Positions 30,675 through 36,069 are shown, counted from the first letter of the stretch. The stretch is 37,067 nucleotides of DNA from Alphaproteobacteria bacterium (GCA_002701555.1 NZVS01000078.1:1-37067); one strand, 5' to 3'. The notes: generated from the letters alone by a model not told the origin. Made by a program: numbers and translations.

Positions 30675-30685
30675 GCAGTTTTTCT

Positions 30686-33238
30686 CTAAAGCTCAAGTAT
30701 ATCAATTTTTCCACTGGGGCTTTTTGTAAGCTTTGGTTTGTCTGTACTTGATGTGTTTTCCAAAGCAGCTGTTTTAAATTCAATTTGAGGCGCACTTGCC
30801 ATTTCTTCATTAGGTATCTGAAAGATAGATGAGTAACTGTCTTTTCCGAGGGTATCACTCCGCTCAGCGCAATATCTGTCAATTTCGGGGATTGCTTCCT
30901 CGTAATTACGAAGGGCGCTATCAACACCGTTTATATTTGAGTATTGCGGTGCTTCTTCGATAATTAGGTTTTTAAATTTATCATCAAAATCAATTTTACT
31001 GGATAGCTCTAAATGACTTGAAAGTCCGAAAGATCCATTCTTGGCAATTAGAATTGCGGACATGCGTCGCTTTGTGTTCTCGGAAATAAAGCCTTCAAGA
31101 AAATCTGTTTCTTCAATTTGTTTAACTAAGCCTACGGTCTCTGAGCCTGATATCGAGGATCTGGTCTTTTCAACTAAAAATATATTAATAAAATTTTCAA
31201 ATTGCTCTGCGATAGCAGGTCGACTTACAATTAAATTTTTAAAAGCACGTACATCGGTGAACTTTAGACCGTATTTAATGGGCTTAGGGTTTTGTAGATT
31301 TTGAATTATACCTTTTTCAAAAACTTGGAATAACAAATCTTTTGTAAATATGTCAGCTGAATCTTGCTTATCAAGCTCATTTGCAAGTTTTCCAAAAGGC
31401 ATATGGTCAAAACCACCTGTATCTATATCCAGAAAAAGCACTTTTCTGGCGCTATCCACCGTCATAGATTTGAACCATGTTAAAGGTTTAGTTTTTGACT
31501 GTGAAGTGGAACCAGTTAACACAGTTGATGCTTTTTTATCGTTCTCTTTAGCTTCTAGTGACCCTGAGCCATTCCCGTTTGGAAGTTCATATTCACTATC
31601 AAAAGAAATATAATTCGGACTTTCTTTTGTAGTAAGGCTATCAAGATAAGAATCTAACTGCTGCAGGGCTTGCATTTTTTCTTGTGCGCAAAAATAGTCA
31701 ACAAGCTGCTGGGGCAAGTAACCTTTATCTTCATTGCGAGCTATAAAATATGTTCGATTGGATGATTTTGAATTTTCTGTAATAGCATAGAATGAATCTT
31801 CAGGGTCAGCGCCGAATTGTTGTTCATGCACTACGAAATATTTCTTTAGGGCGTCCCGTTGCTTAGGTCTTTTCGTACAATCCTTATAAAGCCCCAACAT
31901 GTCATAAGCAGATATACCGCGATAGTCACTCAACGAAGTGTGCAACCTGCCCATAAGTTTGACACATAAATTGGTGAAATCCCTGCTTATGCCAATAGGA
32001 TTTTTTGTAGAAAATAATATTTCTTCATGATCTTCACGACCGTTAACCATTCCTATAAATTCAATGAGTTCCAAGCCCTTATGTTTAAGCAAAATAGCTG
32101 AAGACGTATCCTCGGCAATATATGCACAAAGCATACGCATCATGTTGGTTGAAAAAAATTGTGATTTAAATTCTGACTCTGGTGTTTCCAGATAAAGTTT
32201 CAGAGTAGTGGGCATATGCAGTTGGGGAACAGCGGACATGTTTTTCAGCCAGTCATCTTGAAGAATTTCTTTGTAAGTTTCCAAAGGTGCGGCCATATGC
32301 GGAAACTTGGCGGCTTCCAGAAGTAATTTTATTTTTTCTGCATGAGTAAGCGGGCCATCACTATATGAGTTTTCCCAGATGCGGTCAGTCGTAAATGCTT
32401 TGTTGACACAAATTTTGTCATTTTCGGACAAATTCAAAAATCCTGCTATATGCTCAGGAATGAAGAGCGCGGCATATCTATCATCCGCATTTTTCAATAA
32501 ATTGTAATACTCTTGGAAGTAATTAATGTCGACAGCTTCCTTAAGGGATTTTTGTAGCTTGTGTGCTGCTCGCTTTTCACCATCAAAAATGCGGGTCAAA
32601 AGATTACCCGTATCTATATGCCTTGCAACTGGTAGAAAATTTTCACGTAGCACAATGGCAGTTTTTTGGCTATGTGAGACATTAATAGGATCTTGCGAAT
32701 TTGACGTTAACTTTCTGGCTTCTTCAGCACGCTTTGCTGCACGCAATTTGTTACCATTTGAGATACGGGTATGCTCTGGGTCGTCCTCAATGGAAACTGC
32801 ATTGTTATTAATATCAAACCACCAGTTTCCTGTACCTTCAGCGGCATAAATATAATGCCTTTTCCCCAAGTCCTTAACAGCCTTTTCGTATTTATCGTCT
32901 TTAGGAATTGATGTTTCAAAATCCGTAATATGAAGGAGGGCTGTGTCAAAATCGCAGCGGCGGATATGTGTCATATGTTGGCCAATGACCGCTAAATCAC
33001 TTTCGTTATCTATAAATTCGCCTGTCTCGGAAGATAAATAGTGCTCTTTTATCGTCCATTGATCTTTAAGTGCGTCAATTTGAACGGCCTGGAAATATGT
33101 TACAGCATTATCAACACTTAATATTGCTGGTTTCGCCACAGAGCGCATAACCGCTTGCCCATATTCGTTTTTCTCGAACCAGAGCTGAAGGTCAAGGTCT
33201 ATAGTTTCGTCATATCCGTTATCAGGAGGCCAGCCCAT
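30686..33238 (-). CDS. Large orphan protein (850 aa), paralog of the upstream 509-aa gene over the first ~250-300 aa
   Basis: Uninterrupted 2.5-kb ORF. The ATG directly abuts the TAG stop of the upstream gene, with a G-rich SD (GGGGGGA) inside that gene's last codons. No TM segment, signal peptide or known catalytic motif seen. Confidence 0.8.
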   Translation of the reverse strand: MGWPPDNGYDETIDLDLQLWFEKNEYGQAVMRSVAKPAILSVDNAVTYFQAVQIDALKDQWTIKEHYLSSETGEFIDNESDLAVIGQHMTHIRRCDFDTALLHITDFETSIPKDDKYEKAVKDLGKRHYIYAAEGTGNWWFDINNNAVSIEDDPEHTRISNGNKLRAAKRAEEARKLTSNSQDPINVSHSQKTAIVLRENFLPVARHIDTGNLLTRIFDGEKRAAHKLQKSLKEAVDINYFQEYYNLLKNADDRYAALFIPEHIAGFLNLSENDKICVNKAFTTDRIWENSYSDGPLTHAEKIKLLLEAAKFPHMAAPLETYKEILQDDWLKNMSAVPQLHMPTTLKLYLETPESEFKSQFFSTNMMRMLCAYIAEDTSSAILLKHKGLELIEFIGMVNGREDHEEILFSTKNPIGISRDFTNLCVKLMGRLHTSLSDYRGISAYDMLGLYKDCTKRPKQRDALKKYFVVHEQQFGADPEDSFYAITENSKSSNRTYFIARNEDKGYLPQQLVDYFCAQEKMQALQQLDSYLDSLTTKESPNYISFDSEYELPNGNGSGSLEAKENDKKASTVLTGSTSQSKTKPLTWFKSMTVDSARKVLFLDIDTGGFDHMPFGKLANELDKQDSADIFTKDLLFQVFEKGIIQNLQNPKPIKYGLKFTDVRAFKNLIVSRPAIAEQFENFINIFLVEKTRSSISGSETVGLVKQIEETDFLEGFISENTKRRMSAILIAKNGSFGLSSHLELSSKIDFDDKFKNLIIEEAPQYSNINGVDSALRNYEEAIPEIDRYCAERSDTLGKDSYSSIFQIPNEEMASAPQIEFKTAALENTSSTDKPKLTKSPSGKIDILEL

Positions 33239-34768
33239 CTATCCCCCCATTCTCAGTTCAATATGCTTTTCACGTGTATCTGGAAATTTTGCCAGTTCCA
33301 TAACTTTTTCTTTTGGCAAGATACCTGGATTTTTGGCTAGGTTATCTGCCATAACTTCGCTTTCTTTTGCGTAAGTATATGCATCAAAACAACGCTCAAG
33401 TGTGTATTTTTCATCCTTAGATAAATTTTCTATACGTCCAGCTGATAAAATGAAATTTCCTAAATCTGCAGGAATATGCGGACACATTGCGAAGGTTTCT
33501 AGCGTTTTATTATCACTATTTCTGACAATACAACGGGCTATGCTTGTACTAATGTCATATGGCTTGCTTTCGTGCACGCCCTTTGCATGACAATTTTCAA
33601 CCAATTTGAAAAGAAGCGGCATATAGTTTTTGATATCGCTCTCTTTAATAATATTATCGAGTGCGTATTCGAGATAAGGGTCAAAAATATCAGTCGTTAG
33701 TCTTGGATCTTGTGAGATGATATTCATGAAATCAAGTTTCTCATGCGGCTCTAAACGAAAAGCAAATAAATTTTTGTCAATATCACTTTTATCAAAAACT
33801 GAGAGGTAGACTGGCATTTGTCCAGCCACTTTTAAAAGCTGATAGAAAAGTTGGCGGTCATCATCTTTCAGGGCCTTTTCTTTCAAAGACTTTATTTTCT
33901 TTGCTACGATCCGGGCATAGACCCCGTCCATTCCAAGTTTTGCAGCGATTTCCGAAAACTGGTTTATTTTACCATCTTTCATAAACTGATCTGTGAATTT
34001 TTCGATTTGGTAAACTACACTAAATTGGGATGTGGCAATTTTTCCATCATTTACCATCTCGCATAATTCGTAAAATCTTTCATAGTCCTCAGCCTCAATT
34101 GCTTCTTCCAACCCTTCTACCCACGCGGCTTTGCTCATTTGCTTCTCGCGGGTAAACATAGCCTTTAATTTCTCCCCCAAACTTGCTTTTTTGAAATCGG
34201 GTTCCAAAGAAACGGTATTGACATTGATAACAGCAGGGAAATTTTCGTGATTTTCCCTGTAACGTTGTTCAGCACGCATCAGGTCTTCTTCTGAATATTT
34301 GGCGTGATCCGGAATGCCATTTGAAATATCGATAAGCTTGTGGTTCTGACCCATCATCCAAAAGCCCGATGCCTCTGCCTGATAGAGCCAGTGCTCTTCT
34401 GCTAAATCCTCAACTGCATTTAGATATTTTTGGGAGGTAACATCACAGTGATACATTTCCTTATTATAAAGAAACAGGATGGCCCGACTAAAAGAATACT
34501 CCTCATCCTCAGTCATATGCTCCAAAACTCGACATAACTCATCGTTGGGCGTTTCTATATCACTTTCGAAGGTTTCTTTTACTTTAAAAGTCCTGTGTGT
34601 ATCGGAAACCATCTCGAAATAACTTTCGCGATCATCCAAATCCCAAGTATGGGGTGCCGATACAGTTCTGATTTTTTGTTTTTCCAGGCCGGAATGAACA
34701 GCCGGAACCTTCACAGTTTCTTTATTGTGAAAGGTCCTTTTAGGAGCGGGTAGGTTGCTAGTTACCAT
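33239..34768 (-). CDS. Orphan protein (509 aa), paralog of the 850-aa protein N-terminal region
   Basis: KYLNAVEDLAEEHWLYQAEASGFWMMGQNHKLIDISNGIPDH vs KYEKAVKDLGKRHYIYAAEGTGNWWFDINNNAVSIEDDPEH, and GLEEAIEAEDYERFYELCEMVND vs SLKEAVDINYFQEYYNLLKNADD. The first ATG is at 34768; the ORF-track start at 34786 is TTG. Confidence 0.8.
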   Translation of the reverse strand: MVTSNLPAPKRTFHNKETVKVPAVHSGLEKQKIRTVSAPHTWDLDDRESYFEMVSDTHRTFKVKETFESDIETPNDELCRVLEHMTEDEEYSFSRAILFLYNKEMYHCDVTSQKYLNAVEDLAEEHWLYQAEASGFWMMGQNHKLIDISNGIPDHAKYSEEDLMRAEQRYRENHENFPAVINVNTVSLEPDFKKASLGEKLKAMFTREKQMSKAAWVEGLEEAIEAEDYERFYELCEMVNDGKIATSQFSVVYQIEKFTDQFMKDGKINQFSEIAAKLGMDGVYARIVAKKIKSLKEKALKDDDRQLFYQLLKVAGQMPVYLSVFDKSDIDKNLFAFRLEPHEKLDFMNIISQDPRLTTDIFDPYLEYALDNIIKESDIKNYMPLLFKLVENCHAKGVHESKPYDISTSIARCIVRNSDNKTLETFAMCPHIPADLGNFILSAGRIENLSKDEKYTLERCFDAYTYAKESEVMADNLAKNPGILPKEKVMELAKFPDTREKHIELRMGG

Positions 34769-34777
34769 AATCAGGAT

Positions 34778-36000: not shown

Positions 36001-36005
36001 AAATT

Positions 36006-36027
36006 AAGCCCTGTAACGGGTTTTTTT
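36006..36027 (+). terminator. Weak putative rho-independent terminator
   Basis: AAGCCC, loop TGTAAC, GGGTTT, running into T7. The stem is short and includes a G-U pair. Confidence 0.35.
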
Positions 36028-36069
36028 AAAAAATAAACTCTCGAAAAATATAACGTATAAGGTACTTAC

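What the first reader, a model, noticed from the sequence alone, without database searches (positions are those of the whole stretch)
30675..36069. 5.4-kb orphan insertion between sucD and sucA: two paralog pairs in divergent operons sharing a 90-bp control region
Seen in the sequence:
- sucD (stop 30674) and sucA (start 36070) are separated by four genes with no recognisable family.
- An 850-aa and a 509-aa gene lie on the minus strand. They converge on sucD with only 11 nt between the stops.
- A 190-aa and a 185-aa gene lie on the plus strand just upstream of sucA.
- The two operons diverge from 34769-34856, where back-to-back near-consensus promoters sit directly against the start codons. 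These are TTGACA-17-TATAAC on the minus strand and TTGCAG-17-TATACT on the plus strand.

I saw no transposase, integrase, tRNA or obvious flanking repeat.

Inference: this is a self-contained, co-regulated four-gene module of unknown function, built from two internal duplications.
Basis: partly seen in the sequence, partly recalled or inferred. Interest (0 to 1): 0.7.

Follow-up and report, generated by a model that had tools for sequence, protein, structure and literature searches.

The report
Two unrelated gene sets between sucD and sucA
The stretch between two Krebs-cycle genes of a marine Micavibrio-like bacterium is not one four-gene unit: it holds an old, conserved pair of small proteins of unknown function found across that bacterial order, next to two fast-changing large proteins found only in close relatives.

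Summary
The four ORFs, their coordinates, both paralogies and the back-to-back promoter hexamers are really there. The "self-contained orphan insertion" reading holds only in part.

The window is a Tara Oceans contig from a Micavibrio-like alphaproteobacterium.

**Small genes (190 and 185 aa).** They are not orphans.
- They belong to an unnamed family with 327 cluster representatives, no Pfam or NCBIfam model, and a confident all-helical model (pLDDT 87.6) with no PDB neighbour.
- Two or three tandem copies follow sucD on the suc strand in all but one of the distinct genomic contexts examined. They are present whether or not any large gene is.
- The duplication is ancient, and dN/dS is about 0.04.
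- A conserved -10 box lies 5-9 nt before the first ATG with no Shine-Dalgarno motif, which suggests a leaderless transcript of their own.
- Micavibrio aeruginosavorus has two hypothetical genes of the same size in the same slot. Published RNA-seq shows them on in attack phase, when sucCD and sucAB are off. Their homology is inferred from size and position only.

**Large genes (850 and 509 aa).**
- They share only an N-terminal domain of about 200 aa.
- They evolve fast (66% identity against 97-99% for the suc genes).
- They vary from 0 to 3 copies between relatives, swap C-terminal modules, and are confined to one subclade.

Function is unknown for all four. Interest is moderate.

The parts
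29793..30674 (+). sucD (succinyl-CoA synthetase alpha), left flank
   Evidence: Pfam CoA_binding and Ligase_CoA. 99% identical to the relative L005, dN/dS 0.007.
30686..33238 (-). 850-aa large protein: shared N-domain (~aa 30-250), clade-specific middle part, low-complexity linker (~aa 545-590), C-module (aa 586-824)
   Evidence: ORF. Its only orthologue is an 874-aa protein in a 'Micavibrio sp.' MAG, 66% identity. dN/dS 0.15. The C-module recurs at 47% identity in the 485-aa gene of L008. No family or PDB hits. Acidic, with no TM segment or signal peptide.
33239..34768 (-). 509-aa large protein: the same N-domain plus a different C-part; abuts the 850-aa gene with no spacer
   Evidence: Absent from the closest relatives L005, L006 and L007. 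Homologues are the 534-aa gene of L011 (38% over 374 aa) and the 523-aa gene of L009. Its last codons (ATG GGG GGA TAG) supply the GGGGGA Shine-Dalgarno motif for the 850-aa gene.
34769..34856 (.). 88-nt divergent control region. Minus-strand -35 TTGACA 34806-34801 and -10 TATAAC 34783-34778. Plus-strand -35 TTGCAG 34818-34823 and -10 TATACT 34841-34846.
   Evidence: Sequence. All four hexamers lie in blocks perfectly conserved against L005, while the rest of the spacer has diverged. Both -10 boxes lie only 9-10 nt before their ATG here (6-8 nt in the relatives) and no Shine-Dalgarno motif is present.
34857..35429 (+). Small helical protein, position-1 paralog (190 aa)
   Evidence: Family HMM E 1e-63. 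91% identical to L005, dN/dS 0.041. Falls in the position-1 clade.
35443..36000 (+). Small helical protein, position-2 paralog (185 aa); GGGA Shine-Dalgarno motif in the 13-nt spacer
   Evidence: Family HMM E 3e-52. 86% identical to L005, dN/dS 0.044. AlphaFold2 model from 93 sequences: pLDDT 87.6, eight to nine helices. No PDB or viral structural neighbour.
36006..36027 (+). Weak terminator-like hairpin (AAGCCC-UGUAAC-GGGUUU) with a U7 run, between the small pair and sucA
   Evidence: Fold energy -6.6 to -7.2 kcal/mol, z-score -1.6. The hairpin and most of the U run are conserved in L005. The generic terminator scan did not call it.
36070..37067 (+). sucA (2-oxoglutarate dehydrogenase E1), 5' part, right flank
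   Evidence: Pfam 2-oxogl_dehyd_N. 97% identical to L005.

Best explanation
The interval is a composite of two units with different ages and behaviour, lying in the alphaproteobacterial sucC-sucD-sucA cluster of a marine Micavibrio-like bacterium.

**Unit A: the 190-aa and 185-aa genes**
- This is an ancient tandem pair from a lineage-wide, unnamed family of soluble, acidic, all-helical proteins of about 185 aa.
- Nearly every genome keeps one copy of each paralog type, and some have a third. That pattern is typical of proteins that work together as a hetero-oligomer (inferred).
- The pair is its own transcription unit nested in the suc cluster. A sigma-70-type promoter has its -10 box 5-9 nt before the first ATG and there is no ribosome-binding site. 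This implies a leaderless mRNA. The second gene has an SD motif (GGGA) in the 13-nt spacer, and a weak hairpin plus U-run precedes sucA (inferred from conserved sequence).
- In cultured M. aeruginosavorus, the two genes of the same size in the same slot stay on in the non-growing attack phase, when sucCD and sucAB are silent.
- My best guess at function: a non-enzymatic binding or regulatory complex acting on the succinyl-CoA/2-oxoglutarate node, or at least needed when that node is shut down. This rests on gene-neighbourhood association only, and I put it at about 0.3.

**Unit B: the 850-aa and 509-aa genes**
- This is a subclade-specific, fast-evolving, modular family with one shared N-domain of ~200 aa and exchangeable C-terminal modules.
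- It occupies a permissive gap between sucD and Unit A, on the opposite strand.
- It is transcribed from a promoter with a perfect TTGACA -35, and the second gene abuts the first with no spacer.
- It expands, shrinks and recombines by tandem duplication and by recombination between the homologous N-domains.
- Its behaviour fits lineage-specific interaction or effector-type proteins, but no biochemical activity can be assigned.

The confidence given (0.6) is for the statement as a whole. The composite anatomy alone I put at about 0.85, and the functional guesses at about 0.3.
For: **Source organism**
- Marine metagenome contigs.
- The nearest named relatives are 'Micavibrio sp.', Pseudobdellovibrionaceae and Alphaproteobacteria MAGs.
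- The window carries gene families typical of alphaproteobacteria.

**Unit A**
- 327 family representatives, 271 of them at E<=1e-10.
- Invariant E44, W82, A124, E129 and E171.
- No Pfam or NCBIfam family.
- Confident helical model with no structural neighbour: best Foldseek E 0.15, TM below 0.3.
- Family copies follow sucD on the suc strand in every distinct context examined apart from L019, a lone copy next to mutL. sucA follows the pair in most of them.
- Two paralog clades.
- dN/dS 0.04.
- A TAnnnT box lies 5-9 nt before the ATG in 10 of 12 loci, against a 6% background. The two loci without the box have SD-like motifs instead.
- Promoter blocks are conserved between the window and L005.
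- Terminator-like hairpin.
- ARL-13 expression index, attack/attachment: sucC 0.1/25.8, sucD 1.9/28.4, GMV_652 20.9/10.8, GMV_653 10.5/4.9, sucA 1.5/13.1, sucB 0/17.4 (PMC3189940 Additional file 4).

**Unit B**
- Only two clusters among 5.8 billion proteins.
- 66% identity and dN/dS 0.15 against 97-99% identity for the suc genes.
- N-domain-only paralogy.
- Copy number 0-3 and module shuffling.
- Always antisense to the suc genes.
- GC3 lies within the native range, so there is no sign of recent foreign origin.
- Soluble, with no signal peptide or TM segment.
Against: - No experiment on this organism exists.
- The homology of ARL-13 GMV_652 and GMV_653 to the small family rests on size and position only. 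I could not obtain their sequences.
- The antiphase expression in ARL-13 argues against the small pair being a simple stoichiometric subunit or assembly factor of succinyl-CoA synthetase or 2-oxoglutarate dehydrogenase.
- Conserved position could be inertia, because the suc cluster itself rarely rearranges.
- One genome has a lone copy next to mutL (L019). In L017 and L021 sucA is not adjacent.
- Leaderless transcription is inferred from sequence only.
- In UBA1850 the pair follows sucD within 16-26 nt and has an SD-like motif.
- No structure could be modelled for the large proteins because both modelling jobs went to the small protein.
Confidence: 0.6

Rival explanations
1. One reading: one self-contained, co-regulated four-gene module. 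The large and small proteins work together and are controlled from the shared divergent promoter region.
For: - Back-to-back promoters only 11 nt apart at their -35 boxes, conserved in L005.
- In the five lineages that have large-family genes (the window clade, L005/L007, L008, L009, L011), those genes always sit in this slot, divergent from the small pair.
Against: - The small pair occurs without any large gene in L010, L012-L015, L017 and L020-L022, and apparently in ARL-13.
- Evolutionary rates are very different.
- The 509-aa gene is absent from the closest relative.
- Large-gene copy number is variable.
- The intergenic distance is ~480 nt in L008 and L011, not 88 nt.
- There is no profile similarity between the two families.
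Confidence: 0.1
2. A polymorphic toxin or effector locus with immunity genes. The large proteins carry a constant N-terminal delivery domain and variable C-terminal toxic modules, and the small acidic proteins neutralise them.
For: - Constant N-domain with exchangeable C-modules, fast evolution and tandem copy-number change.
- Small acidic neighbours.
- Relatives live as predators (PMC3189940).
Against: - No toxin, PAAR, Rhs, VgrG, RTX or secretion-related domain, and no PADLOC hit.
- No signal peptide.
- The small genes are not downstream of the large genes in the same operon.
- The small genes are ancient and slowly evolving, and they persist where no large gene exists. Cognate immunity genes that co-vary with a toxin would behave the opposite way.
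Confidence: 0.07
3. The small pair has nothing to do with the TCA cycle. It was inserted once in an ancestor of the order and stays between sucD and sucA only because that cluster is rarely rearranged. Its role lies in the attack-phase or non-growth physiology of these bacteria.
For: - It has its own promoter and terminator-like signals.
- Expression is antiphase to the suc genes in ARL-13.
- Other slots of the same cluster (sucC-sucD, sucA-sucB, sucD-pair) have collected unrelated genes in different lineages.
- A lone copy sits next to mutL in L019.
Against: - Linkage to sucD survives divergence down to 21-25% protein identity. It also survives events that moved sucA away (L017, L021).
- The other slots turn over while this pair does not.
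Confidence: 0.4
4. The two large genes are a recently acquired foreign island.
For: - Total GC is 38.6-39.3%, against 42.4% for the window.
- Phyletic distribution is very narrow.
Against: - GC3 (0.33-0.37) lies inside the range of native genes (0.33-0.43).
- No integrase, transposase, tRNA or flanking repeats.
- Homologues sit in the same slot in relatives whose sucD is ~86% identical, which implies vertical descent within the subclade.
- No hits in the phage-protein (PHROGs) or defence-system (PADLOC) libraries.
Confidence: 0.05

Closest known systems
Alphaproteobacterial mdh-sucC-sucD-sucA-sucB cluster (gene order known from my own knowledge of Rhizobium, Brucella and Caulobacter)
   Same: sucC, sucD and sucA lie in that order on one strand. 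The same order, followed by sucB, is seen in relatives and in M. aeruginosavorus ARL-13.
   Different: - Here every junction is interrupted by lineage-specific genes.
- Two genes lie between sucC and sucD, four between sucD and sucA, and two between sucA and sucB in L005.
- Some of these genes are antisense, so the cluster cannot be a single operon.
- No mdh lies upstream of sucC in the window.
M. aeruginosavorus ARL-13 GMV_652 and GMV_653 (hypothetical proteins; Wang et al. 2011, PMC3189940)
   Same: - Two hypothetical genes of 582 and 624 nt lie between sucD (GMV_651) and sucA (GMV_654).
- That is the size and position of the small pair.
- Their expression is independent of the suc genes, which fits the pair's own promoter inferred here.
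   Different: Sequence relatedness was not checked here. ARL-13 has no large genes in the slot.
Polymorphic toxin or effector families with a constant N-domain and variable C-modules
   Same: Constant N-terminal domain, exchangeable C-terminal modules, tandem copies and fast evolution.
   Different: No recognisable toxin, delivery or immunity domains. The neighbouring small genes do not behave as immunity genes.
Leaderless bacterial mRNAs (common in Caulobacter and actinobacteria; own knowledge)
   Same: A -10 box lies 5-9 nt before the ATG and there is no Shine-Dalgarno motif. Both features are conserved across diverged loci.
   Different: No transcription-start data exist for this organism. 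Some relatives use a Shine-Dalgarno motif instead (L014, L020, L010).

Membership tests
Genomic island / mobile element | Integrase, transposase or recombinase gene | tested here: not met
   No such domain in any ORF of the interval or its flanks.
Genomic island / mobile element | tRNA target or flanking direct/inverted repeats | tested here: not met
   No tRNA in the window. Only short chance-level repeats.
Genomic island / mobile element | Foreign base composition | tested here: not met
   Total GC is ~4 points lower in the large genes, but GC3 (0.33-0.37) lies within the native range.
Polymorphic toxin-immunity locus | Recognisable toxin or delivery domain in the large protein | tested here: not met
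   No hits in Pfam, NCBIfam, PADLOC, PHROGs or PDB sequences. No structure model could be made.
Polymorphic toxin-immunity locus | Small immunity gene immediately downstream that co-varies with the toxin module | tested here: not met
   The small genes are divergent, ancient and slowly evolving, and are present without large genes.
Co-transcribed suc operon member (accessory subunit or assembly factor) | Conserved position on the same strand next to sucD/sucA | tested here: met
   The pair follows sucD on the suc strand in every distinct context examined apart from L019.
Co-transcribed suc operon member (accessory subunit or assembly factor) | Co-expression with the suc genes | tested here: inconclusive
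   The ARL-13 RNA-seq table shows the genes in this slot behaving opposite to sucCD and sucAB. Their homology is inferred only, and no data exist for this organism.
Known helical families (TerB-like, TenA/haem-oxygenase-like, TetR C-terminal, COQ9) | Significant profile or fold match | tested here: not met
   - Pfam and NCBIfam scans of 93 members gave only single stray hits.
- Best PDB profile hit was 1rtw at E 0.034.
- Best Foldseek E was 0.15 with TM below 0.3.
Leaderless transcription unit | -10 box about 7 nt before the start codon and no Shine-Dalgarno motif | tested here: met
   10 of 12 loci against a 6% background. The exceptions carry SD-like motifs.
Leaderless transcription unit | Mapped 5' end at the start codon | not testable with these tools
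   Needs dRNA-seq or 5'-RACE.

The most novel reading that the evidence does not exclude
The tandem small proteins form a previously undescribed hetero-oligomeric regulator. It is specific to Micavibrio-like bacteria, is made from a leaderless mRNA during the non-growing attack phase, and holds the succinyl-CoA/2-oxoglutarate node of the TCA cycle off until prey contact. The adjacent fast-evolving modular proteins are prey-interaction factors.
Probability: 0.12. Interest if true: 0.65.

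Novelty: new variant of a known kind. Interest (0 to 1): 0.36.

Why it matters
Micavibrio-like bacteria are obligate or suspected predators. About 30% of the genes of the cultured species are hypothetical, and many of those dominate attack-phase expression (PMC3189940).

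This work picks out one hypothetical family with four useful properties:
- it is order-wide;
- it is always kept as two or more paralogs;
- it has a confident fold with no known relative;
- it is embedded in a central-metabolism cluster while apparently being regulated opposite to it.

That makes it a concrete, testable candidate for the growth/non-growth switch of these predators. The large genes mark a hot spot of gene birth, duplication and module exchange.

For genome annotation, the case also shows that a word-index search calling a gene an orphan (2 hits) can be overturned by an exhaustive profile search (327 hits).

Tried and rejected
**Family and structure searches that found nothing useful**
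- Pfam, NCBIfam, PADLOC and PHROGs scans of all four proteins and of family members gave nothing above noise.
- PDB sequence and profile searches gave nothing. The best hit was 1rtw, TenA-like, at E 0.034, and I rejected it because the family has no conserved His ligands.
- Foldseek of the confident small-protein model against the PDB and against viral structures gave no hit at E<=0.001.
- Profile-profile comparison of the small family with the large family showed them to be unrelated.
- The 491-aa gene compared with the 850-aa gene is unrelated.
- Rfam on the interval gave nothing.

**Collection scans**
- A word-index homologue search for the small and large proteins returned only the near relatives.
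A six-sequence alignment worked.
- Two metagenome scans for the large family (N-domain, then C-module) returned only an already known contig.

**Other dead ends**
- I tried to identify M. aeruginosavorus members of the small family through cluster look-ups, without success.
- The TerB-like idea came from the motif S..DD.GG...D..E..AL. It was a recollection of mine, and Pfam and Foldseek did not support it.
- The ubiquitin-like C-terminus of the 509-aa protein (...ELRMGG*) is most simply explained by its overlap with the Shine-Dalgarno motif of the next gene.

Full report
**1. What is in the sequence**

The interval 30675-36069 holds four ORFs, as described:
- 850 aa at 30686-33238 (-);
- 509 aa at 33239-34768 (-);
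- 190 aa at 34857-35429 (+);
- 185 aa at 35443-36000 (+).

Flanks and junctions:
- sucD (29793-30674) and sucA (from 36070) are confirmed by Pfam.
- The stops of sucD and the 850-aa gene are 11 nt apart.
- The 509-aa and 850-aa genes abut with no spacer. The last codons of the 509-aa gene form the Shine-Dalgarno motif GGGGGA for the 850-aa gene.

Independent gene calls on four public copies of the contig agree. They extend the 190-aa gene to 199 aa, but the family alignment supports the ATG at 34857.

Comparison with a relative shows that all four are real genes under purifying selection:

| Gene | dN/dS |
|---|---|
| 850-aa | 0.15 |
| 190-aa | 0.041 |
| 185-aa | 0.044 |
| sucD | 0.007 |
| sucA (N-terminal part) | 0.038 |

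All four proteins are acidic and hydrophilic, with no signal peptide or membrane segment.

**2. Source organism**

- Identical contigs come from Tara Oceans and other marine metagenomes.
- The rest of the window carries gene families typical of alphaproteobacteria: FYDLN_acid, DUF2336, AFG1, SspB, ScpAB-TatBC.
- The closest named relatives are MAGs labelled Micavibrio sp., Pseudobdellovibrionaceae or Alphaproteobacteria.
- NCBI files Micavibrio under Bdellovibrionota. The gene content here is alphaproteobacterial.
- Gene order matches cultured M. aeruginosavorus ARL-13: TatC, AFG1..., sucC, a hypothetical gene, sucD, two hypothetical genes, sucA..., sucB.

**3. Paralogy**

- 190 aa against 185 aa is a full-length match: 26% identity, E 3e-17.
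- 850 aa against 509 aa share only an N-terminal stretch of about 230 aa: 26% identity, E 2e-13.
- The small and large families are unrelated to each other.

**4. The small genes are not orphans**

The word-index search found only the near relative. An exhaustive HMMER profile search then found 327 representatives of 50%-identity clusters, 271 of them at E<=1e-10. All are about 170-210 aa long.

Properties of the family:
- A 93-member alignment has invariant E44, W82, A124, E129 and E171. G24, S28, D31, V123, A126, S168, A174 and L182 are nearly invariant.
- No member matches a Pfam or NCBIfam family.
- Every source name is "hypothetical protein".
- An AlphaFold2 model built on this alignment is confident (pLDDT 87.6, pTM 0.84) and made of eight to nine helices.
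- Foldseek finds no neighbour in the PDB (best E 0.15, TM below 0.3) or among viral models.

**5. Conserved position of the small pair**

- In all eight GTDB loci recovered, tblastn gives the order sucD, a variable gap, a 190-like gene, a 185-like gene, then sucA, all on one strand.
- Further contexts agree:
  - L015/L016: sucC-sucD-287aa-187-181-170-sucA.
  - L017: sucD-183-177-175.
  - L020: sucD followed by three copies.
  - A JGI contig: sucD-191-181-sucA.
  - L021 and L022 show the same arrangement.
- In UBA1850 the pair starts 16-26 nt after sucD, depending on the start codon chosen.
- The only exception is a lone copy next to mutL in L019.
- A neighbour-joining tree separates first-position from second-position copies into two clades, with third copies as a further group. 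The duplication therefore predates the sampled diversity, and both types are kept.

**6. The large genes are a variable cassette**

- Among 5.8 billion proteins, the 850-aa protein has only one orthologous cluster: 874 aa, 66% identity.
- In that relative, sucC, sucD and sucA are 97-99% identical and the small genes 86-91% identical. The 509-aa gene is absent there.
- More distant relatives differ from one another:
  - L008 has one 485-aa gene that combines a 509-type N-domain with the C-module of the 850-aa gene.
  - L011 has one 534-aa gene of the 509 type.
  - L009 has three tandem paralogs.
  - L010 and L012-L015 have none.
- Where the family is missing, the slot is empty or holds unrelated plus-strand ORFs.
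- All family members lie antisense to the suc genes.
- GC3 of the two genes is within the native range, so there is no sign of recent import.
- Two metagenome scans added no new members.

**7. Transcription signals**

- Taken alone they are unremarkable. The generic scan finds promoter-like sites at chance level and lists neither site.
- Comparison helps. Between the window and L005 the 88-nt spacer is 69% identical overall, but all four hexamers sit in perfectly conserved blocks. Four-fold degenerate sites in sucC and sucD are only 50-63% identical.
- Upstream of the first small gene, a TAnnnT box ends 5-9 nt before the ATG in 10 of 12 loci that have an upstream spacer. Background is 6%.
- Those ten loci lack a Shine-Dalgarno motif. 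The two loci without the box have one.
- In the loci read by eye (window, L005, L008, L009, L011), a TTGCnn -35 lies 17 nt upstream of the box.
- This is the signature of a leaderless mRNA.
- In the window and L005 the first large gene has TTGACA, 17-18 nt, TATAAC, then 7-9 nt to the ATG, which also gives almost no leader. In L008, L009 and L011 it has a TTGAC(A/T) -35 followed by a normal leader with a Shine-Dalgarno motif.
- After the 185-aa gene there is a short hairpin with a U7 run. The hairpin and most of the U run are conserved in L005.
- The 88-nt shared control region is clade-specific. In L008 and L011 the same spacer is ~480 nt.

**8. Expression evidence from a cultured relative**

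The data come from Additional file 4 of Wang et al. 2011 (PMC3189940), which gives a gene expression index for attack and attachment phases:

| Gene | Attack | Attachment |
|---|---|---|
| sucC | 0.1 | 25.8 |
| GMV_650 (hypothetical, 432 nt) | 0.1 | 26.6 |
| sucD | 1.9 | 28.4 |
| GMV_652 (hypothetical, 582 nt) | 20.9 | 10.8 |
| GMV_653 (hypothetical, 624 nt) | 10.5 | 4.9 |
| sucA | 1.5 | 13.1 |
| sucB | 0 | 17.4 |

- The paper reports that only 33% of genes are transcribed in attack phase, and that TCA-cycle genes are attachment-phase genes.
- By my own hand count of the first part of the table (about 190 genes), about one gene in ten reaches an attack-phase index of 10 or more.
- The two genes in this slot are therefore transcribed independently of their suc neighbours and opposite to them. 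This fits the separate promoter inferred above.
- Caveat: their homology to the small family is inferred from size and position. I could not retrieve their sequences.

**9. Interpretation**

The interval is a composite.
- **Unit A** is the small pair. It is an old, order-wide addition to the suc cluster with its own transcription unit.
  - Obligate retention of two or three paralog types suggests a hetero-oligomer.
  - Persistent linkage to sucD suggests a role at the succinyl-CoA/2-oxoglutarate node.
  - The antiphase expression suggests a regulatory or holding role rather than an enzyme subunit.
  - These functional steps are inference. I give them about 0.3, and about 0.4 to the alternative that the position is historical inertia and the role is unrelated attack-phase physiology.
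- **Unit B** is the large genes. It is a subclade-specific, fast-evolving, modular family in a permissive gap.
  - Its dynamics resemble those of effector or interaction proteins, but no domain supports a toxin-immunity reading.
  - The small genes behave in the opposite way to immunity genes.

**10. Context and verdict**

- The same cluster is interrupted elsewhere:
  - two family-less genes lie between sucC and sucD in the window;
  - two more lie between sucA and sucB in L005;
  - various unrelated genes sit in these slots in other lineages.
- About 10 of some 35 genes in the window have no Pfam hit, comparable to the 30.6% hypothetical ORFs of ARL-13. Family-less genes between housekeeping genes are therefore normal for this lineage.
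The four-gene-module interpretation is only partly supported.
- What remains of interest is a well-defined, unnamed, structurally unassigned protein family tied to the suc cluster of predatory-type alphaproteobacteria.

Noticed in passing
window 27709-29184 (-) and 29316-29765 (+): sucC and sucD are also split by two family-less genes: a 491-aa gene with one hydrophobic N-terminal segment, and a 149/145-aa gene. Both are conserved in L005 (88-90% identity, dN/dS 0.03-0.07). L012 has a 32%-identical homologue of the 491-aa gene in the same slot. ARL-13 has a 432-nt hypothetical gene (GMV_650) between sucC and sucD that is co-expressed with sucCD.
   Followed up: partly
window 19466-20650 (+) and 20619-21887 (+): Another tandem paralog pair without any Pfam hit: 394 and 422 aa, 23% identity over 358 aa, E 2e-25. 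Tandem duplication of lineage-specific genes recurs in this genome.
   Followed up: partly
window 21941-22963 (-) and 23032-24135 (-): Adjacent genes carry a GH108 lysozyme-like domain and an M23 peptidase domain. Both are peptidoglycan hydrolases, which could matter for a predatory lifestyle. Two family-less genes (352 and 250 aa) follow, and they evolve fast (68-74% identity to L005, dN/dS ~0.125).
   Followed up: no
window upstream of 26438 (sucC): No mdh gene precedes sucC, unlike M. aeruginosavorus ARL-13 (GMV_643) and most alphaproteobacteria. That position is taken by family-less and cell-wall hydrolase genes.
   Followed up: no
C-termini of large-family proteins: window 33239-33260; L008, L009 and L011 homologues: Several otherwise divergent C-termini carry [KR]-[LIM]-G-x-G: the 509-aa protein ends ...ELRMGG (ubiquitin-like), the L009 412-aa protein has PRIGGG, L011 has PRLGRG and L008 has KLGQGK. 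For the 509-aa gene the motif overlaps the Shine-Dalgarno motif of the next gene. The other cases are unexplained.
   Followed up: partly
L005 13577-15084 (between sucA and sucB): In the closest relative, sucA and sucB are separated by two more family-less genes: 131 aa (-) and 335 aa (+). The window ends before this point.
   Followed up: no
window 30660-30700, both strands: The 11-nt gap between the convergent sucD and 850-aa stops lies inside an A-run, short hairpin and U-run that could act as a weak bidirectional terminator. Otherwise the convergent transcripts would overlap.
   Followed up: partly
L015 5058-5921; L022 3108-4004 and 4060-4932: In other lineages the slot between sucD and the small pair holds a different family-less family of ~290 aa, duplicated in L022, on the suc strand. 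This slot repeatedly hosts lineage-specific, duplicating genes.
   Followed up: partly
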